From Gemmatimonadota bacterium (GTDB taxonomy: Bacteria; JAAXHH01): a stretch of 64,000 bases of DNA. This document shows, piece by piece, positions 4,597 through 13,973 of this stretch (position 1 is the first letter of the stretch; every line of letters starts with the position of its first letter). The position numbers and the translations under genes were made by a program. Under the pieces are notes generated by a model, which worked only from the letters and a program-made list of their open reading frames with translations, searched no databases and was not told the DNA's origin. Location: contig JAPOZT010000019.1 in assembly GCA_026705925.1 (NCBI GenBank), positions 49,878 through 113,877 of the forward strand, written 5' to 3'.

Positions 4597-4857
4597 TTAC
4601 TGATGCTGGGATATCCGTAATCGTCCCTCTACCCGTCCCAGGCGCGTATTCATGTCGTGTATCTCTTCCCGCATTGAGGATAACTCGGTACGTATAGCAG
4701 CCAACTCGGTACGCATTTCCGAGAAGTCGGAACGGATTTCATCCCTGAATTCCTGGTTCAGCTGATTGACAAACGCAAAAACGGTAATGACAAGAACCCC
4801 TGCGGCCGTTATGATCTGGGCGCCGAAGGCCCATTGGTCCCGAGACATCGTGGTCAT
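4597..4857 (-). CDS. small N-terminally anchored coiled-coil membrane protein (islet gene C, paralogous in architecture to B)
   Basis: ATG preceded by AAGGAG-N6. TM helix (IITAAGVLVITVFAFV) then EFRDEIRSDFSEMRTELAAIRTELSSMREEI coiled-coil-like segment. Confidence 0.5.
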   Translation of the reverse strand: MTTMSRDQWAFGAQIITAAGVLVITVFAFVNQLNQEFRDEIRSDFSEMRTELAAIRTELSSMREEIHDMNTRLGRVEGRLRISQHQ

Positions 4858-4994
4858 GTCTGACTCCTTCCAAAGTTGATCCAAATAAGCCTACCGCCGT
4901 TGATCCCACGCTGATATCTTAAGAGTCGCATTTCAAGTTTCCTATCTCGCAGAAAAAACGCTGTTGAACACTATCTTGCGAAAAGGACCACACA

Positions 4995-6944: not shown

Positions 6945-7703
6945 ATGTCCGATGCTACATCGCCGAATATCGTCCCCAAGACCTACACCTGCTACCGTGC
7001 CTGCGGCTCGATCGCGATCGACGGAAAGCTGAGCGATCCGTCCTGGATCCGGGCGCCCCGCACCGACCTCTTCGTCGACATCGAGGGCGACCTCAAGCCC
7101 ATCCCGCGCTTTGGCACGCGCGCCATGATGCTGTGGGACGACGAGTACTTCTACGTCGCCGCGGACATGGAGGAACCGGACGTCTGGGGCACACTGACCA
7201 AGCGGGATTCCGTCATCTGTCTCGACAACGACTTTGAGGTGTTTATCGATCCCGACGGGGACACCAATCACTACATGGAGTTCGAGATCAACCCCTTGAA
7301 CACCGCCTGGGACCTGTACCTGCCCAAGCCCTACAGCAAGGGCGGGAAAGCCGATCACGACTGGGACTTCGAGGGCGTGCGGCACGCCGTCCATATCGAC
7401 GGAACGGTCAACTGCTCCCACGACGTGGACCGCGGCTGGTCCACCGAAATAGCCTTTCCCTGGACCAGCATGGCCGAATACGCCGGCGTCGACTGTCCTC
7501 CCAGGGCCGGAGATTCCTGGCGGGTCAACTTCTCACGGGTCGAGTGGGAATTCGAGCGTTACAAGGACGGCTATCTGAAGAAAGAGGGGGTTCCCTGCGA
7601 CAACTGGGTCTGGTCGCCGCAGGGAGAGATCAACATGCATATCCCCGAGATGTGGGGACACGTCGTGTTTTCGGATACCATCGTAGGAACGGCGGCGATG
7701 TGA
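6945..7703 (+). CDS. carbohydrate-binding family 9-like (CBM9/DOMON-like) protein
   Basis: IDGKLSDPSW...FEVFIDPDGD...WSTEIAFPW pattern typical of CBM9-like domains. Confidence 0.55.
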   Translation: MSDATSPNIVPKTYTCYRACGSIAIDGKLSDPSWIRAPRTDLFVDIEGDLKPIPRFGTRAMMLWDDEYFYVAADMEEPDVWGTLTKRDSVICLDNDFEVFIDPDGDTNHYMEFEINPLNTAWDLYLPKPYSKGGKADHDWDFEGVRHAVHIDGTVNCSHDVDRGWSTEIAFPWTSMAEYAGVDCPPRAGDSWRVNFSRVEWEFERYKDGYLKKEGVPCDNWVWSPQGEINMHIPEMWGHVVFSDTIVGTAAM

Positions 7704-7723
7704 CGGTTTGTTGCCTTGCCCGT

Positions 7724-8050
7724 TCAGGTTAGCTTCATCACGGTCAAGATTGCCCCGAAGCCCGTTACGAAAATCCCAATAGACCATCGAAACAGTGTAT
7801 TCGAGTGGGCGATCATTTCCGTTCTCATCCGCTCCATGTCCGTTCTCATCTGTTCCATGTCTGTTCTCAGTACACCTAGATCGTCACGTGTGGCTACATG
7901 CTCCAGTTTCTCCTCGATTCTGGTCAATCGGATCTTGATGTTGTCCGAACTGTAGTACAGATCGTCCTCGATCCGCCTGATGGACGCCGCGATTTCCCGT
8001 GAACTCATCCCGGTATTGCCGGTTGGACGTTTGCTTTTTGACTGGTTCAT
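7724..8050 (-). CDS. DUF1640-like tail-anchored coiled-coil protein (paralog D)
   Basis: N-terminal conserved NxSKSKRPTGxTGMSSREIxASIRRIEDDLY shared with neighbour. (T/R)xDL / RTxM heptad repeats. C-terminal TM helix (WSIGIFVTGFGAILTVMKL). Contains 21-nt in-frame tandem repeat. Confidence 0.6.
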   Translation of the reverse strand: MNQSKSKRPTGNTGMSSREIAASIRRIEDDLYYSSDNIKIRLTRIEEKLEHVATRDDLGVLRTDMEQMRTDMERMRTEMIAHSNTLFRWSIGIFVTGFGAILTVMKLT

Positions 8051-8086
8051 TTTCGTCTAGCGGTCCTCCCATTGACCTCTGTTTGT

Positions 8087-8509
8087 TCAGGTTAGCTTCA
8101 ATACGGCCAAGATGACCCCCATGCAGGAAACAACAACGCCGATTGTCCATCGAAATTGCGTGTGAACTAGGGCGATCATTTCCGTTCTCAATTCTGCAAG
8201 GTCTTCCTGTGTGGCGAATGCCCCCAGATCGTCCTTTGTGGCAAAGGCCTTCAAATCTTCCTTTGTGGCAAAGGCCTTCAGATCGTCACGTGTGACGAAC
8301 GCTTTCAGATCATCACGGGTGGCGAATGCTTTCAGGTCGTCACGTGTGACGACATGCTCCAGCTTCTCCTCGATCCTGGTCAGGCGTATCATGATGTTGT
8401 CGGACCCGAAATACAGATCATCTTCGATCCGCCTGATGGACGCCTCGATTTCCCGCGAACTCATCCCGGTTCCGCCGGTTGGTCGTTTGCTTTTTGGATT
8501 GTTCATCAC
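8087..8509 (-). CDS. DUF1640-like tail-anchored coiled-coil protein (paralog E) with expanded TRDDLKAFA repeat
   Basis: Same N-terminus and C-terminal TM as 7724-8050. Five to six in-frame 27-nt tandem units encoding TRDDLKAFA variants. Confidence 0.6.
   Translation of the reverse strand: MMNNPKSKRPTGGTGMSSREIEASIRRIEDDLYFGSDNIMIRLTRIEEKLEHVVTRDDLKAFATRDDLKAFVTRDDLKAFATKEDLKAFATKDDLGAFATQEDLAELRTEMIALVHTQFRWTIGVVVSCMGVILAVLKLT
8214..8348 (-). repeat. in-frame 27-nt tandem repeat array (about 5 units) inside DUF1640-like gene E
   Basis: Units ggcaaaggccttcaRatcKtcMYKtgt seen directly. Paralog D has a 21-nt x2.5 repeat at about 7820-7875. Confidence 0.8.
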
Positions 8510-8906
8510 ACCTGTCCTTTTTGGTTAGTATGGTGACTCATTGATCATACCGATTTGCATGTGAGACGTAGAAAACGCTCCGGTTTGCTTTCTGCCCTCT
8601 GATTCTCTCGTGCTGTAGCACACCTTCGGGGATCGGCGCCACGAATCCACCGCGAATCCTCCGGATCAACGCCCTATAAATGTTTCAGTAGTAGCGCGCT
8701 CGAGATATCTCGTGTTTTACTTTATTTAAAGGCGGTTGGCACGGCGGAGATCGTGTTCGCGATCATCTCATCGCATCACAAATACGATTTAGTTTTTCTA
8801 TAATTAAAATCTAATTTTGGTTTATATAAAATCAACTTGCGTTTATATGAACACTGATTTATCTTTTTAACTAAAATGAGAAAGAACAACGAATCGTGGA
8901 AATCTT

Positions 8907-9263
8907 ATGACCAGCGACACCGATTTAAATAACGACACTGTTCGGATACCGAACCCGCGTTTACCCGCCCATTGCCCGGGCTGTGCCGCGGCCCTGAAGG
9001 TCACCCGCCTGGACTGCACCGAGTGCGATACGGCCGTGATCGGCGGCTTTCACCTGCCGCCGTTAGCCCGGCTTGCCCCGGAGGATCAGGCCTTTGTGCT
9101 CTGCTTTCTCCAGACCGGCGGCAATCTCAAGGACATGGCCGAACGCTACGGCGTCTCCTACCCCACGCTGCGGAACCGCCTCGATGACCTGGTCGCGCAT
9201 CTGGATTCGTTGGGGGCGGTGGACCATCCAGAGGAAGAACTCGGCGAAGCAAGCAGCTTCTGA
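8907..9263 (+). CDS. DUF2089-like zinc-ribbon + HTH protein
   Basis: CPGC...CTEC zinc-ribbon followed by HTH-like segment (DMAERYGVSYPTLRNRL). Preceded by a 370-bp very AT-rich region. Confidence 0.55.
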   Translation: MTSDTDLNNDTVRIPNPRLPAHCPGCAAALKVTRLDCTECDTAVIGGFHLPPLARLAPEDQAFVLCFLQTGGNLKDMAERYGVSYPTLRNRLDDLVAHLDSLGAVDHPEEELGEASSF

Positions 9264-9305
9264 TGCGCATTTCGTTACACATTTCGATGGGCAATACGTA
9301 GAAGG

Positions 9306-10334
9306 ATGCCAGTCATGGACGCTTCCCACACCCTCGCTTCCCACACACGCGAGTCTTCAGTCCAGCGCACGTGGCGCACGTGGCTGTTCAATCCCTTCCA
9401 CTACCTGGCCGGCGGGACGGCGCTGGCCTGGGGACTGGCATGTATCGTCTTGACCGCCTGGCTTGGCGGCGCATTCGATTACCGTTACACGGGCACGCTT
9501 TCCTTCCAGCTTTCGACACCGACGCCAATCTGGCTCGCCATAACGCAGGGCCTTACGGCGTGGATCGTACCCAGCGTCCTGCTTTACCTCGCCGGGCGCG
9601 GTCTCAGCCGCAGCCGCGTTCGCCTCGTCGACGTCTTCGGCACCCAGGCCCTGGCGCGTGCGCCTGGACTGCTCGTGGCCCTGATCGTGTTGTCACCGCC
9701 CTTTCGCGACCTCACGGCCTCTCTGATTGCCCAGGGCGCCTCGCATTTCTCGGTCGCACAGCTTACGGCCCTCACTGCGATAGGTACGGTGATGGCGTTG
9801 CTGCTGGTCTGGATCGTGCTACTGATGTACCGCGCTTTTTCCGTCTCGTGCCATGTCGCCGGAGGATGGGCAATCGCCGCATTCATCGCCGCCATCGCCG
9901 TGGGAGAGGTGGCCACCGGTGCGACGGGACAGTTCCTGCAGGGCGCCGTCGCTCCTCAGCCCGTTGCCAGCGTAACCGTCCAGTCCGATCAACACCATCG
10001 GGCCGAGCAGCTGGCCACACGGATCCTCCAGGGGTACGAACTGGGCCGCTTTGAAGCCCTGAGCCCAGAGGAGGCCACCGAGGTATTTCGCACGGGTTTC
10101 ACCGCGGAGGTACAGCGCCAGAACCATCAGACCATACGGCTGATGTTCGGCGCCTTCGAGGGTCTGGATTACATCGAAACGCGGTACATGGACAGCCAGC
10201 CGCACCTGCTGATTCACCGCTTCAAAGGCCGGTACGGGAACGCGTCCCGGCCGCCCGAAGTGCGCGTCGTCCTCGACCGGGACGGCAGGCTGGCGGGCCT
10301 CTGGATCAAGCCCTGGCAGGATGAATTGCAATGA
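9306..10334 (+). CDS. Yip1-like polytopic membrane protein with C-terminal soluble domain
   Basis: Five predicted TM helices then about 120-aa soluble tail. ATGA overlap with next gene. Confidence 0.5.
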   Translation: MPVMDASHTLASHTRESSVQRTWRTWLFNPFHYLAGGTALAWGLACIVLTAWLGGAFDYRYTGTLSFQLSTPTPIWLAITQGLTAWIVPSVLLYLAGRGLSRSRVRLVDVFGTQALARAPGLLVALIVLSPPFRDLTASLIAQGASHFSVAQLTALTAIGTVMALLLVWIVLLMYRAFSVSCHVAGGWAIAAFIAAIAVGEVATGATGQFLQGAVAPQPVASVTVQSDQHHRAEQLATRILQGYELGRFEALSPEEATEVFRTGFTAEVQRQNHQTIRLMFGAFEGLDYIETRYMDSQPHLLIHRFKGRYGNASRPPEVRVVLDRDGRLAGLWIKPWQDELQ

Positions 10335-10792: not shown

Positions 10793-10864
10793 GGTGCTGA
10801 ACGAGCGACCCCAAGTTTCGAGAAAGTGCAGACTGCGGCTCCCGTGCGTCACTGGCACGGCCGG

Positions 10865-11047
10865 TCATGCGGTTGGAAGAGGGTTTTTCCATGCGTACCA
10901 GACTTTATCCTGATATCCGTTCTTCAGTCTGATCTCGACCTCAATACCAAGCACCTCAATCTCTTCGTCGGTCAACAGATCCAGTATTTTGCTTTTCAGT
11001 ATCTCGGCCTTTCGTGGGTCAATCAGCCGACCTTTCTAGTCTACCAT
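10865..11047 (-). pseudogene. small islet gene interrupted by in-frame amber codon at codon 4 (MVD*KGRLIDPRKAEILKSKILDLLTDEEIEVLGIEVEIRLKNGYQDKVWYAWKNP...)
   Basis: AAGGAG-N8-ATG, then TAG at 11036-11038, then 56 open codons in the same frame to TGA at 10865. Confidence 0.4.
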
Positions 11048-11127
11048 AGGAATACTCCTTCAACCCCGCCAAAGTTGGAATATGATGGTTATTAGCCCGC
11101 CGATGATCGCAGTTCCCAGTCCATAGA

Positions 11128-11310
11128 CTACCCTCCGCAGGAATCGGACTCGGCATCAAACTCCGACATCCTCTTGTAGGAATGGTCGATAAGTTTGTAT
11201 ATGCTGACTTCGGTTCTTTCAAGACCGAATAACCTGCTCTTTATATTTTCGTCTTTAAAAAACACTTCATCCAGGAGCTTTTCTGTCTCTCGTGAATTAC
11301 CTGTGTTCAT
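11128..11310 (-). CDS. hypothetical 60-aa protein (possible partner of the amber-interrupted ORF)
   Basis: Low-GC ORF MNTGNSRETEKLLDEVFFKDENIKSRLFGLERTEV... with weak SD. No recognisable family. Confidence 0.3.
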   Translation of the reverse strand: MNTGNSRETEKLLDEVFFKDENIKSRLFGLERTEVSIYKLIDHSYKRMSEFDAESDSCGG

Positions 11311-11498
11311 GTTTCATGACCTTTACAAGTTTGAGTTACAAGTGCTAACTTAAATGGACATCTATACAGAAAAACCGGCGGCGGCGATTCACGCTTAAAC
11401 CCGAACCTTCTATATTAAATGGTCATAGGGAGAACAGATTATCTCGTGTTTTATCTTTCTGATAGTTTGTTAGCCGATCTACATCACAGGAGCGTAAC

Positions 11499-11735
11499 GT
11501 GCCTAAAGTCAGCTCTAAACGACAGATTACGCTTCCGGCGGATCAGTGCCGTTTAGTCGGCATCGAGCCGGGCGACGAGTGCCAGAGCTTCGTGGCCGAC
11601 GGACGCATTACCATAATACGCCAGGAGCCCGGCATCGCCTGGGGATGCCGGGCGCATCTCGAAGGCGATCCGACGGTTTCGGAAGAGGAATCGCGCCAGG
11701 ACGCGATAGAAGGAAAGCGAGAACAGACGCCTTAA
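11499..11735 (+). CDS. vapB: AbrB/MazE/SpoVT-family antitoxin (VapB-like)
   Basis: GTG start with AGGAG 8 nt upstream. MPKVSSKRQITLPADQCRLVGIEPGDE is a SpoVT-AbrB swapped-hairpin signature. Confidence 0.7.
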   Translation: MPKVSSKRQITLPADQCRLVGIEPGDECQSFVADGRITIIRQEPGIAWGCRAHLEGDPTVSEEESRQDAIEGKREQTP

Positions 11736-12130
11736 TCGCCATCGACACCAATGCCCTGCTGCGCTATCTCCTGAGAGACGACGATGGGAAGGCTGAACAT
11801 GCATGTCGCGTGATAGAAGGCGGCGAGCGTGTGCTTATTACGGATATGGTACTGGCGGAAACGGTGAGGACGTTAGCCAGCCCAGGAATCGCGTGACCCG
11901 GGCGGAGCTGATCGACCTGATCAATAACCTGCCGCAAGGTGCAAATCTGCACTTTGAGGATGACGAAGCGGTCTGAAGCGCCCCGCAGGCCTATCGTAGG
12001 ACGAAGGCGGACTTCGCCGACGCCCTGATCGTGTGCAAGGCCGAAAAGCTGGCTGTCGCGGGCGACGAGTTGAGCGCTGTTTACACCTTCGATGACGTCG
12101 CTTTGCAATTGCCCGGTACTGCAAAGCCGT
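11729..12130 (+). pseudogene. vapC: PIN-domain toxin (VapC) disrupted by at least two frameshifts and lacking canonical start
   Basis: Three consecutive frames encode IAIDTNALLRYLLRDD... / RAELIDLINNLPQGANLHFEDDEAV / ADFADALIVCKAEKLAVAG...YTFDD, which are consecutive PIN-domain segments. Confidence 0.6.
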
Positions 12131-12160
12131 AGTACATTTCCGATTCCCTAACGATACCCC

Positions 12161-12937
12161 TTACCCCACCCCAACCTCAATCCCGATCGGACAGTGATCC
12201 GACCCCATGACGTCCGGCATGATCCACGCGTTGGAGACTGAGGGCATCAGGTCCTCGGTCACGTAGAAGTAATCGATGCGCCAGCCCACGTTCCGCTTTC
12301 TCGCTCCGGACATGAGGTGCCACCAGGTGTAGTTGTCCGGCCCTTCGTCGAATTGCCGGAAGGTATCTACGTAACCCATATCAACGATTTTGTCGATCCA
12401 CTCGCGTTCCATGGGAAGGAACCCAGAGATCTTCTCGTTGTCCTTGGGGCGGGCGAGGTCGATCGCTTTGTGGGCCGTGTTCACGTCGCCGCATATGACG
12501 AGTTTTTTACCATCCGCACGGAGCGACTCCCAGTGGGCCAGGATGGCCGCGTAAAAGTCCATTTTGTACTGCAGCCGTTGGGCGTTCTGCTTACCATTCG
12601 GGAAGTACACGTTGAACAGGGTGAAATCGGGGTACTCCAGCACCAGGGTCCGGCCTTCCGAATCGAAACGTTCCTCGCCGAACCCTTTCTCGACGCTGAT
12701 GGGTTCGTGGCGCGTGTAGACGCCTACGCCGCTGTATCCTTTTTTCTCCGCTTCCGACCAGTAACTCGTATATCCTTCGACATCCGTGATCTTGGCGTCC
12801 AGTTGCGACTCCTGGGACTTGGTTTCCTGAATGCAGAGGATGTCCGGCGCCTCCCCCTGGAACCACTCGATGAAGCCCTTCTTCGCCACCGCCCTTACCC
12901 CGTTCACGTTCCAGCTCAACAGATTCCATGAAGACAT
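12161..12937 (-). CDS. xth: exodeoxyribonuclease III
   Basis: MSSWNLLSWNVNG...QETK...GDVN...SDHCP are ExoIII/AP-endonuclease family signatures. Confidence 0.85.
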   Translation of the reverse strand: MSSWNLLSWNVNGVRAVAKKGFIEWFQGEAPDILCIQETKSQESQLDAKITDVEGYTSYWSEAEKKGYSGVGVYTRHEPISVEKGFGEERFDSEGRTLVLEYPDFTLFNVYFPNGKQNAQRLQYKMDFYAAILAHWESLRADGKKLVICGDVNTAHKAIDLARPKDNEKISGFLPMEREWIDKIVDMGYVDTFRQFDEGPDNYTWWHLMSGARKRNVGWRIDYFYVTEDLMPSVSNAWIMPDVMGSDHCPIGIEVGVG

Positions 12938-13042
12938 GAAGATCACCTTTCCTGGTTAATGCTGCTATTTGGATTCCTTTGTGTGGAACTACAGACGAAA
13001 CGATAACCAAAAGGATGGCTAATCAGATTATGATTAACAAAA

Positions 13043-13337: not shown

Positions 13338-13973
13338 TTAACTCGGCAAGAACTCAATAGAGCTTATGTCTCGGCCTGTAAGGTACACACCGTGACCATT
13401 AGTAACCCAATTGTTTTCTTCATCTAGCTCGAATATCTCTTCGATATACAAATCTCGTTCATCGGGATCAGAAGAGATAAACGAATCTGCTCCTAGGAAA
13501 CCGCCAAACATGGAACCGTTATTCAATCTAACCAGTATATACTGTTCATTCAAGTCTGAAAACGTCCAATCCCAAGCACTCGGAGTTGGATGTATGGGAT
13601 TAAGCCTGATTTTCTTTAACGTTTTATACAGTAACGTTCTGTTTGAAACAGCTCCAGTAACAGCACCTACAATGACTGGAATTATAACAAGAAAAACCAA
13701 CCACCTTAGCGTACCTAGTGTTGGACCTTCCCACCATAAATGATTTGCAATCAACACGTCTGTAATTAGGAACAACACAGCCCAGTAAATCGTGGAAACC
13801 GTTAAATAAAGTAAGAATCCTGCTGGATATGGAAGAATCCTTCCTGAAACTAGTTGCGACCTGACAAAAACGATTATGAATCCTGGCGTGACAGCCATAA
13901 TAAAAACCAGCGCTGTGGGATTTACTTTTAGCGAATGCCACCCAGGAAACAATTCACCGATTAGGTTTTCCAT
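13338..13973 (-). CDS. hypothetical membrane protein (4 N-terminal TM helices + soluble C-terminal domain) in about 40% GC islet
   Basis: Long ORF with strongly AT-biased codon usage versus neighbours. No family recognised. Confidence 0.55.
   Translation of the reverse strand: MENLIGELFPGWHSLKVNPTALVFIMAVTPGFIIVFVRSQLVSGRILPYPAGFLLYLTVSTIYWAVLFLITDVLIANHLWWEGPTLGTLRWLVFLVIIPVIVGAVTGAVSNRTLLYKTLKKIRLNPIHPTPSAWDWTFSDLNEQYILVRLNNGSMFGGFLGADSFISSDPDERDLYIEEIFELDEENNWVTNGHGVYLTGRDISSIEFLPS

What the first reader, a model, noticed from the sequence alone, without database searches (positions are those of the whole stretch)
7724..8509. Tandem paralogous DUF1640-like tail-anchored coiled-coil proteins with in-frame tandem nucleotide repeats, in a ~45% GC islet
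Two adjacent minus-strand genes share a conserved N-terminus (NxSKSKRPTGxTGMSSREIxASIRRIEDDLY), a heptad-like (T/R)xDL repeat core and a C-terminal TM anchor, but differ in repeat number. Gene E carries about five 27-nt in-frame units (TRDDLKAFA) and gene D carries 21-nt units (RTDMEQM). A 21-nt identical block (gggcgatcatttccgttctca) marks their paralogy. In-frame tandem repeats in surface or membrane-anchored coiled coils are classic length-variable contingency loci. The islet is flanked by a 370-bp extremely AT-rich region.
Basis: partly seen in the sequence, partly recalled or inferred. Interest (0 to 1): 0.6.

Follow-up and report, generated by a model that had tools for sequence, protein, structure and literature searches.

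The report
Membrane-anchored stalk proteins with repeat-built stalks
Two neighbouring genes encode small membrane-anchored stalk proteins whose in-frame DNA repeats are structural building blocks of a known unusual triple-stranded fibre, so repeat number probably sets stalk length and does not act as a rapid on/off or surface-variation switch.

Summary
Two minus-strand paralogues, D (7724-8050, 108 aa) and E (8087-8506, 139 aa), share a conserved N-terminus and a C-terminal membrane helix. E carries 27-nt repeats and D carries 21-nt repeats.

E's 9-residue unit F-A-T-[RK]-[DE]-D-L-K-A fits the published "nonad" beta-layer motif of trimeric alpha/beta coiled coils. E matches PDB 5APZ (Tcar0761 nonads) at E = 5e-7. 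D has one beta-layer followed by three ordinary heptads.

The overall build (head, beta-layer neck, stalk, C-terminal anchor) is that of DUF1640/CCDC90-like proteins. Both proteins fail Pfam's threshold, and their head is different.

The locus is syntenic in at least nine uncultured species, labelled Latescibacterota or Gemmatimonadota. These carry 1-3 tandem copies, each with 0-13 beta-layer motifs.

Repeat number differs between genomes about 96% identical in flanking DNA. Three other assemblies are 100% identical to the window across the arrays, and the window's units are old and diverged. There is no signal peptide, so the stalk should face the cytoplasm.

The contingency-locus reading is therefore not supported. 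I rate this a new variant of a known kind, of moderate interest.

The parts
8087..8506 (-). Gene E, 139 aa. Basic N-terminal tail (aa 1-14), conserved helical head (aa 15-51), six nonads (aa 52-105), about 1.5 heptads, and a C-terminal membrane helix.
   Evidence: ORF list and sequence. GGA-containing Shine-Dalgarno-like motif about 7 nt before the ATG, read. dN/dS 0.07 against the L016 orthologue. Identical to MCY3713354.1.
8192..8353 (-). E nonad array: VVTRDDLKA, FATRDDLKA, FVTRDDLKA, FATKEDLKA, FATKDDLGA, FATQEDLAE. That is six beta-layer motifs at exact 9-residue spacing.
   Evidence: TRF 27 nt x 5.3. Unit table. Spacing of 9 throughout. phmmer match to PDB 5APZ, E = 5e-7. Motif definition in PMC4786415.
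8354..8464 (-). E head (aa 15-51, MSSREIEASIRRIEDDLYFGSDNIMIRLTRIEEKLEH). Two predicted helices joined by a short loop. Specific to this family.
   Evidence: Most invariant and nearly invariant columns of the family alignments lie here. AF2 monomer gives H17-32 and H38-49 at low confidence. Only 13 cluster representatives reach E <= 1e-10 among 1.84 billion.
8099..8155 (-). E C-terminal membrane helix (FRWTIGVVVSCMGVILAVL), followed only by K-L-T.
   Evidence: Best 19-residue hydropathy window (2.14) runs to the C-terminus; no hydrophobic N-terminal segment. R119, W120 and K137 are invariant.
7724..8050 (-). Gene D, 108 aa. Same head, one nonad, three heptads, C-terminal membrane helix.
   Evidence: GGGAGGA about 13 nt before the ATG, read. 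AF2 monomer gives H17-33, H35-51, a break at 52-54 and H55-107.
7871..7897 (-). D's single nonad (VATRDDLGV, aa 52-60): the beta-layer "neck" that follows the head directly.
   Evidence: Motif match. The only break in the AF2 helix falls on V52-A53-T54.
7808..7870 (-). D heptad repeats LRTDMEQ, MRTDMER, MRTEMIA (aa 61-81). L/M fall at position d and M at position a, an ordinary coiled-coil register.
   Evidence: TRF 21 nt x 2.7 at 7814-7869. Units 57-81% identical in DNA. Register assigned by hand from the sequence.
7736..7792 (-). D C-terminal membrane helix (FRWSIGIFVTGFGAILTVM), followed by K-L-T.
   Evidence: Hydropathy maximum at aa 86-104. R88, W89, K106 and L107 are invariant.
8507..8906 (.). 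Shared AT-rich spacer between E and the divergent DUF2089 regulator gene (8907-9263, +). Presumably holds the promoters and E's leader. Contains a conserved block with the palindrome CGAGATATCTCG at 8701-8712.
   Evidence: GC 0.41 overall and 0.33 at 8700-8900. Conserved blocks across 8 loci. Palindrome located. Sigma-70-like sites found only on the + strand.

Best explanation
D and E are tail-anchored inner-membrane proteins. I predict they form parallel homotrimers.

Each has four parts:
- a small family-specific two-helix head;
- a beta-layer "neck" (V-[AV]-T-R-D-D);
- a stalk;
- a single C-terminal membrane helix that leaves at most 3 residues on the far side.

Head and stalk should therefore sit in the cytoplasm.

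The DNA repeats encode whole structural modules of the stalk:
- E's 27-nt unit is a nonad (F-A-T-[RK]-[DE]-D-L-K-A). Six in a row should give an alpha/beta coiled coil. Short helical turns would alternate with triangular beta-layers, each moving the chains 120 degrees round the trimer axis.
- D's 21-nt unit is an ordinary heptad with a Met/Leu core.

Adding or losing a unit keeps the register and changes only stalk length. About 35 residues separate head and membrane helix in D, and about 66 in E. My rough estimate is 5 nm against 9-10 nm.

By analogy with the mitochondrial relatives MCUR1/CCDC90B and Put6/Put7, the likely job is a membrane-tethered scaffold or spacer that holds a partner bound by the head at a set distance from the membrane.

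Repeat number changes over evolutionary time through unequal recombination between units. Tandem paralogues also exchange modules by gene conversion.

Shown: motif, spacing, similarity to a solved nonad fibre, synteny, copy-number and repeat-number differences, purifying selection.
Inferred: trimer state, topology, scaffold function.
For: - **Motif and spacing.** The published beta-layer consensus is [aliphatic]-A-T-K-[polar]-[DE], and MATKDDIAN nonads form a trimeric alpha/beta coiled coil (PMC4786415). E has six such motifs exactly 9 residues apart. Across all related loci the spacing is 9, or 11 in one subtype.
- **Solved structure.** E matches PDB 5APZ (GCN4-Tcar0761 nonads) at E = 5e-7. 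The family profile matches it at 0.002, and matches 6H9L (ATKEDIEALRK units) at 0.06.
- **Register.** L42(a), I45(d), L49(a), E-H, V-[AV]-T, R-D-D, L58(a) reproduces the published a-b-c-b1-b2-b3-e-f-g pattern. This was read by hand.
- **AF2 monomers.** D's long helix breaks only at V52-A53-T54. E's nonad region is not modelled as a continuous helix.
- **Family link.** PF07798 is the commonest Pfam hit among 100 distant relatives (22) and among 78 family members (18, best 1e-8). P0053 passes the cut-off over the stalk and membrane helix. Proteins with a classical DUF1640 head, FATKDDL nonads and a C-terminal membrane helix exist: P0122, P0127, P0201.
- **Topology.** No N-terminal hydrophobic segment; the membrane helix sits at the extreme C-terminus. 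Put6/Put7 are matrix-facing (PMC7519068).
- **Conserved chromosomal locus.** At least nine species carry 1-3 copies. dN/dS is 0.07.
- **Unit gain.** L001 and L015 are 95.7% identical in flanking DNA. Their seven shared units of the E gene are 27/27 identical. L015 has two extra units copied from unit 6. Their D-type genes differ by one nonad plus one heptad.
- **Module exchange.** In L001, L015 and L007 the D-position gene carries the E-type membrane helix.
Against: - No multimer prediction or experiment was possible, so the trimer and the beta-layers are inferred from motif and homology.
- Both AF2 models are low confidence (pLDDT 64 and 58).
- Position b1 is Phe or Val, not the typical Met/Ile/Leu. 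Position e is often Arg or Gln, not Lys.
- Neither window protein reaches the PF07798 cut-off, and the head has no detectable relative outside this clade. The scaffold function therefore rests on analogy alone.
- No neighbouring gene is strictly co-conserved. The DUF2089 and adjacent membrane-protein genes are missing in L004, and only the third gene of that operon remains.
- Hits to coiled-coil and membrane-helix profiles are prone to compositional bias.
Confidence: 0.62

Rival explanations
1. Contingency locus. The tandem repeats mutate at high frequency within a population, giving length variants of an exposed membrane protein for immune or phage evasion.
For: Repeat number differs between close relatives. 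L001 and L015, at 95.7% flank identity, differ by two nonads in one gene and by a nonad plus a heptad in the other. Family lengths range from 87 to 197 aa.
Against: - The window's units are only 59-85% identical in DNA, with large synonymous divergence. The longest exactly periodic run is 22 nt.
- L017, L018 and L019 are 100% identical to the window across both arrays.
- Clusters at 90% identity contain no repeat-number variants; length differences there come from start-site calls or truncated contigs.
- Units are multiples of 3 nt, so no on/off switching is possible.
- There is no signal peptide and the anchor is C-terminal, which predicts a cytoplasmic stalk.
Confidence: 0.08
2. Phage-derived lysis accessory or holin-like proteins (XhlA / DUF2730 / PHROG 689 type) left behind by a prophage.
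For: Weak profile hits: phrog_689 "holin" at 7.8e-6, DUF2730 at 1.2e-4, XhlA at 0.08. Twelve of 78 family members hit XhlA and twelve hit DUF2730 at E <= 0.01. The build is the same: a coiled coil followed by a C-terminal membrane helix. GC3 is lower than in the neighbours.
Against: - All hits fall below the curated cut-offs and lie in the coiled-coil and membrane-helix part.
- No phage genes flank the pair. It sits between a DUF2089 operon and CBM9/PhyH/asparaginase genes in at least nine species.
- tblastn finds nothing in 50,697 phage records or 72,556 plasmids.
- No PADLOC hit.
Confidence: 0.07
3. An ordinary alpha-helical coiled-coil or single-helix stalk. On this view the ATKxD motif is only a compositional resemblance and the 9-residue period is accommodated without beta-layers.
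For: AF2 monomer models are low confidence and give no beta structure. Phe at position b1 is unusual. No experimental data exist for this family.
Against: - A strict 9-residue period over as many as 13 units does not fit a heptad-based helix, according to the published analysis.
- Sequence identity to crystallised nonads is significant.
- Protein-level conservation of A-T-[KR]-x-D holds despite saturated synonymous change between units.
Confidence: 0.15

Closest known systems
Tcar0761 of Thermosinus carboxydivorans and the DUF3782-type nonad coiled coils (PDB 5APZ; Hartmann et al., eLife 2016, PMC4786415)
   Same: Consecutive 9-residue units with the A-T-K-[polar]-[DE] beta-layer motif, flanked by heptads. 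There is direct sequence similarity: E = 5e-7 for residues 69-123 of E against the crystallised MATKDDIAN units.
   Different: Tcar0761 is described as a coiled-coil protein related to PD-(D/E)XK endonuclease stalks. The paper mentions no membrane anchor. D and E have no DUF3782 hit, have a C-terminal membrane helix and a different head, and use Phe/Val at b1 and Arg/Lys/Gln at e.
DUF1640 / CCDC90-like family (PF07798): MCUR1, CCDC90B, yeast Put6/Put7 and prokaryotic members
   Same: The build is head, then a beta-layer motif at the start of the stalk, then a coiled-coil stalk, then a single C-terminal membrane helix. The bulk of the protein faces the matrix, the equivalent of the bacterial cytoplasm. 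Members occur as paralogue pairs that form complexes. PF07798 is the top Pfam family for distant relatives.
   Different: D and E score 12.9 and 16.2 bits against a 33.5 cut-off, and only over the stalk and membrane helix. No match to the classical head (profile positions 1-78) was found. The stalk is dominated by repeated nonads or Met-core heptads.
6H9L "uncharacterized protein" (ATKEDIEALRK 11-residue units)
   Same: The third subtype of this family has 11-residue units such as ATRDDMEKLNV (seen in L003, L004, L005, L011). It resembles this chain's repeat; the family profile matches it at E = 0.06.
   Different: The match is weak. This subtype is not present in the window itself. I could not read the paper that describes the entry.
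Borrelia Bdr proteins (from my own knowledge, not tested beyond a BLAST search)
   Same: Paralogous families of small proteins with a variable number of short in-frame repeats containing a T-K-x-D-like core, and a C-terminal inner-membrane anchor. This is a precedent for repeat-number polymorphism in non-surface proteins.
   Different: tblastn of E against 72,556 plasmids, a collection I assume includes Borrelia plasmids, gave no match at E <= 0.01. Bdr genes are plasmid-borne, whereas this locus is chromosomal and syntenic.

Membership tests
PF07798 DUF1640 / CCDC90-like | Score at or above Pfam's gathering threshold (33.5 bits) | tested here: not met
   D scores 12.9 bits and E 16.2 bits. 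Eighteen of 78 family members hit at E <= 0.01. Of the members whose bit scores were examined, only P0053 reaches the cut-off (35.7 bits).
PF07798 DUF1640 / CCDC90-like | Classical N-terminal head domain (profile positions about 1-78) | tested here: not met
   All matches of D, E and their relatives fall in profile positions 79-175. The head of D and E has relatives only within this clade.
PF07798 DUF1640 / CCDC90-like | Beta-layer motif at the start of the stalk | tested here: met
   V-[AV]-T-R-D-D follows helix 2 directly, in the a-b-c-b1-b2-b3-e-f-g register. The AF2 helix breaks there.
PF07798 DUF1640 / CCDC90-like | Single C-terminal membrane helix (tail anchor) | tested here: met
   The hydropathy maximum lies in the last 19-23 residues, and at most 3 residues follow it.
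Alpha/beta coiled coil (nonad beta-layer fibre) | Consensus [aliphatic]-A-T-K-[polar]-[DE] | tested here: met
   E has VVTRDD, FATRDD, FVTRDD, FATKED, FATKDD and FATQED. Conservative departures: F/V at b1 and R/Q at e.
Alpha/beta coiled coil (nonad beta-layer fibre) | Exact 9-residue spacing within a heptad background | tested here: met
   Spacing is 9 throughout E and in all nonad-type relatives, for up to 13 motifs. Heptads follow: LRTEMIA in E and three units in D.
Alpha/beta coiled coil (nonad beta-layer fibre) | Sequence similarity to a solved nonad fibre | tested here: met
   5APZ matches at E = 5e-7 with E alone and at 0.002 with the family profile.
Alpha/beta coiled coil (nonad beta-layer fibre) | Parallel homotrimer with beta-layers in three dimensions | not testable with these tools
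   Only monomer AF2 was available. Models are low confidence, and the nonad region is not a continuous helix.
Contingency (hypermutable repeat) locus | Near-perfect tandem repeats able to slip at high frequency | tested here: not met
   Unit-to-unit DNA identity is 59-85%. The longest exactly periodic run is 22 nt. Synonymous divergence (dS) between units is mostly 0.4 to above 1.
Contingency (hypermutable repeat) locus | Repeat-number differences within a strain or population | tested here: inconclusive
   Three other assemblies are 100% identical to the window, and there are no variants within 90% clusters. Genomes at 95.7% flank identity do differ. Reads could not be inspected.
Contingency (hypermutable repeat) locus | Product exposed at the cell surface | tested here: not met
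   No signal peptide and a tail anchor predict a cytoplasmic N-terminal part. This is sequence-based inference.
XhlA (PF10779) / holin PHROG 689 / DUF2730 | Score above the curated cut-off, and a phage lysis-cassette context | tested here: not met
   XhlA scores 13.6 against 34.7 bits and DUF2730 scores 22.6 against 24.9 bits. There are no phage neighbours and no tblastn hit in phage records.

The most novel reading that the evidence does not exclude
The locus could be a natural, evolving "length series" of alpha/beta coiled-coil tethers. On this reading, one clade of uncultured bacteria, probably host-associated, keeps 1-3 tandem paralogues with the same unique head. Their stalks are assembled from interchangeable 7-, 9- and 11-residue modules, giving 0-13 beta-layer motifs. 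Selection would tune how far the head is held from the inner face of the membrane, so the proteins act as adjustable molecular rulers for an unknown partner or intracellular structure. Paralogues of different length would work together, as MCUR1 and CCDC90B do.
Probability: 0.15. Interest if true: 0.55.

Novelty: new variant of a known kind. Interest (0 to 1): 0.35.

Why it matters
Beta-layer nonads were described from one crystallised fragment and a few families. Here they appear in a compact, conserved locus where nature has varied the number of units (0-13 motifs) and mixed them with heptad and 11-residue units, all behind the same head and anchor.

That offers a ready-made comparative set for asking two questions:
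- how alpha/beta coiled coils evolve by unit duplication;
- whether stalk length matters in DUF1640-like membrane scaffolds, whose function in prokaryotes is, to my knowledge, still unknown.

It also corrects a tempting misreading. In-frame repeats in a membrane protein are not automatically a contingency locus.

Tried and rejected
- **NCBIfam:** no meaningful hit.
- **PADLOC defence models** for D, E and four neighbours: none.
- **Rfam** on 7000-9500 at E <= 1: none.
- **tblastn** of E against plasmids and of D against phages: no match.
- **Structured RNA in E's leader:** RNAalifold on six loci gave -11.6 kcal/mol with an unfavourable covariation term. About 130 nt of the leader is deleted in L016. 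I dropped the idea.
- **Promoter scan:** sigma-70-like sites on the + strand only, and no convincing terminator.
- **AF2 monomer models:** both too low in confidence (pLDDT 64 and 58) for a fold search, so none was run.
- **Adlakha et al. 2019** (Structure 27:464), which describes prokaryotic DUF1640 relatives, is not held in the library.
- **Exact look-up of P0077:** no record. P0078 and P0035 were used in its place.
- **Recently acquired islet:** rejected. The locus is syntenic in at least nine species, though the low GC3 remains unexplained.

Full report

Yes. Two minus-strand ORFs lie at 7724-8050 (D, 108 aa) and 8087-8506 (E, 139 aa from the ATG; a GTG lies 3 nt upstream). They are 54% identical, BLASTP E = 1e-46. 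Nearly all the difference lies in a central gap of 31 residues.

Tandem Repeats Finder reports 27 nt x 5.3 copies at 8209-8352 and 21 nt x 2.7 copies at 7814-7869.

Two details need correcting:
- The pair is 51% GC, not 45%.
- The upstream spacer is 41% GC, with only about 200 bp at 33%.

The dip is still real in relative terms. GC3 is 0.62-0.64, against 0.76-0.88 in the six neighbouring genes.

Both genes have Shine-Dalgarno-like motifs, read. E evolves under strong purifying selection, with dN/dS = 0.006/0.086 against its orthologue in L016.

**2. What the repeats encode**

E's unit reads V/F-A/V-T-R/K/Q-D/E-D-L-K/G/A-A/E, six times at exact 9-residue spacing. This fits the "nonad" beta-layer motif of Hartmann et al. 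(eLife 2016, PMC4786415). That paper reports:
- the consensus is [aliphatic]-A-T-K-[polar]-[DE];
- the MATKDDIAN repeats of Thermosinus Tcar0761 crystallise as a trimeric alpha/beta coiled coil;
- three residues per unit leave the helix, form a triangular beta-layer and shift each chain 120 degrees round the axis.

A plain sequence search of the PDB with E finds that construct, 5APZ, at E = 5e-7. The next hit is 6H9L, which has 11-residue ATKEDIEALRK units.

The register fits by hand. In both proteins L42(a), I45(d), L49(a), E, H, then V-[AV]-T, R-D-D, L58(a) reproduces the published a-b-c-b1-b2-b3-e-f-g pattern.

D has this one beta-layer only. It is followed by three heptads (LRTDMEQ, MRTDMER, MRTEMIA) with L/M at position d and M at position a. 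So the 27-nt and 21-nt DNA repeats are two kinds of coiled-coil module.

AF2 monomer models are of low confidence (pLDDT 64 and 58) but consistent with this:
- D's C-terminal helix (55-107) begins only after a break at V52-A53-T54.
- E's nonad region is not modelled as a continuous helix.

**3. Overall architecture and family**

Each protein has, in order:
- a basic tail (aa 1-14);
- a highly conserved two-helix head (aa 15-51);
- the beta-layer neck;
- the stalk;
- a hydrophobic helix at the very C-terminus, followed only by K-L-T.

There is no N-terminal hydrophobic segment. This is the tail-anchored head-neck-stalk-anchor plan of DUF1640/CCDC90-like proteins. The eLife paper describes those as integral membrane proteins carrying the beta-layer motif at the start of the stalk.

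Formal membership fails. D and E score 12.9 and 16.2 bits against a 33.5 cut-off, and only over the stalk and membrane helix. The link is nevertheless consistent:
- PF07798 is the commonest Pfam family among 78 family members (18 at E <= 0.01, best 1e-8) and among 100 distant profile hits (22).
- One member, P0053, passes the cut-off over profile positions 79-174.
- Proteins with the classical DUF1640 head, FATKDDL nonads and a C-terminal membrane helix exist: P0122, P0127 and P0201.

The head of D and E is different and rare. A profile search of 1.84 billion cluster representatives gives only 13 hits at E <= 1e-10. A word-indexed search of 5.8 billion proteins gives 76.

**4. Distribution and synteny**

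All named homologues come from uncultured genomes. NCBI labels them Gemmatimonadota. The GTDB-representative record titles say Candidatus Latescibacterota. One isolate name (Plut_88884) and several sample labels suggest marine host-associated samples. That is my inference, not a test.

Window E is identical to MCY3713354.1.

In every long contig the genes sit in the same place. They lie between a divergent DUF2089 (zinc-ribbon plus HTH) operon and a convergent CBM9-like gene, which is followed by PhyH and asparaginase genes. This is therefore not a recently acquired islet.

Copy number at the locus is 1, 2 or 3. Each copy has 0-13 beta-layer motifs. Lengths run from 89 to 197 aa, apart from one truncated 69-aa copy in L014.

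A third subtype uses 11-residue units, such as ATRDDMEKLNV.

**5. How fast do the repeats change?**

In the window's allele the six units of E are old. They are 59-85% identical in DNA. Synonymous divergence between them is mostly 0.4 to above 1, while the protein motif is conserved. The longest exactly periodic run is 22 nt.

Contigs from three other assemblies are 100% identical to the window over 12,378, 3,943 and 2,348 nt, including both arrays. These are L017 (SRR10996931), L018 (SAMEA7723723) and L019 (ERR5005034). They may not all be independent samples. Clusters at 90% identity show only start-site or truncation differences.

Change does happen on an evolutionary scale. L001 and L015 are 95.7% identical in flanking DNA:
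- The seven shared units of the E gene are 27/27 identical.
- L015 has two extra units derived from unit 6.
- The D-type genes differ by one nonad plus one heptad.

Tandem paralogues also exchange modules. In L001, L015 and L007 the D-position gene carries the E-type membrane helix. Its last 90 coding nt (30 codons) are 83-88% identical to window E's, against 74% to window D's.

**6. Interpretation**

The best reading has four parts:
- D and E are cytoplasm-facing, tail-anchored, probably trimeric stalk proteins.
- The repeats are stalk modules.
- Unit gain or loss preserves register and changes stalk length, about 35 against about 66 residues between head and membrane.
- The proteins act as membrane-tethered scaffolds or spacers.

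The scaffold idea rests on analogy with MCUR1/CCDC90B and Put6/Put7. Those are paralogue pairs that form matrix-facing membrane complexes. The structural part is well supported by sequence. Trimer state, topology and function are inferred.

The contingency-locus reading is not supported, for the reasons set out in section 5 and in the topology argument of section 3.

A phage-lysis (XhlA / holin / DUF2730) origin is suggested only by sub-threshold hits in the coiled-coil and membrane-helix region. It is contradicted by context and by empty phage and plasmid searches.

**7. Novelty and score**

The motif, the fibre and the DUF1640 architecture are all published. What is new here:
- a clade-specific head;
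- a multi-nonad stalk in a tail-anchored protein family, which I did not find described in the papers I could read;
- tandem paralogy;
- a natural series of stalk lengths built from 7-, 9- and 11-residue modules.

I rate it a new variant of a known kind, with interest 0.35.

Noticed in passing
window 8685-8717 (palindrome at 8701-8712): The block ACACGAGATA...CTACTACTG, including the perfect palindrome CGAGATATCTCG, is invariant or nearly so in the spacer between E and the divergent DUF2089 gene in 8 related loci. It could be an operator or a promoter element for the DUF2089 HTH protein.
   Followed up: partly
window about 8545-8675: About 130 nt of E's putative leader is conserved in five relatives but cleanly deleted in L016. 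RNAalifold gave no convincing structure, and Rfam found nothing.
   Followed up: partly
window 4597-4857 (-), ORF listed as 4597-4884: An 86-aa protein with the opposite layout: an N-terminal membrane helix followed by a C-terminal MRTEL/IRTEL heptad coiled coil. Its products in L017 and L020 carry a weak precomputed DUF2730 hit, and the ORF is also present in L016. It lies in a 45-50% GC stretch about 3 kb from D. tblastn with D touches it (4681-4737, E = 0.06).
   Followed up: partly
window 10800-12150, and the same position in L001-L004: The stretch between the Exo_endo_phos gene (12161-12946) and the DUF2089 operon varies between relatives. The window has an AbrB-like ORF (11499-11735) and an ORF with a sub-threshold PIN match (11546-11896). 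Relatives carry PIN/RHH pairs, an IS1595 transposase (L003), GmrSD (L001) or a type I restriction-modification system (L004).
   Followed up: no
window 13338-13973 (-): A DUF6338 membrane protein gene sits in a 40% GC islet. The same gene is present in L016 and L017.
   Followed up: no
L014 4001-4210: The only family copy found in this genome's locus is truncated to 69 aa after the head. It is probably a frameshifted pseudogene, so the family can be lost.
   Followed up: no
P0113, P0116-P0118 (metagenome proteins, not in the window): Proteins with 8 to more than 15 near-perfect FATK[DE]DLK nonads occur in quite different contexts. One example is a PD-(D/E)XK/DUF3782 nuclease. Of 100 distant hits, 70 have at least 3 beta-layer motifs, and spacings of 9 dominate (292 counts). 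Multi-nonad stalks therefore look much commoner in metagenomes than the few described cases suggest.
   Followed up: partly
record titles of L006-L014, and names: The same lineage is named Gemmatimonadota/Gemmatimonadetes in NCBI protein records and Candidatus Latescibacterota in the genome record titles.
   Followed up: no
window 7724-8506 and all orthologues: GC3 of every family member (0.56-0.66) stays well below that of the flanking genes (0.76-0.88), even though the locus is old and syntenic. Neither recent transfer nor amino-acid composition alone explains this.
   Followed up: partly
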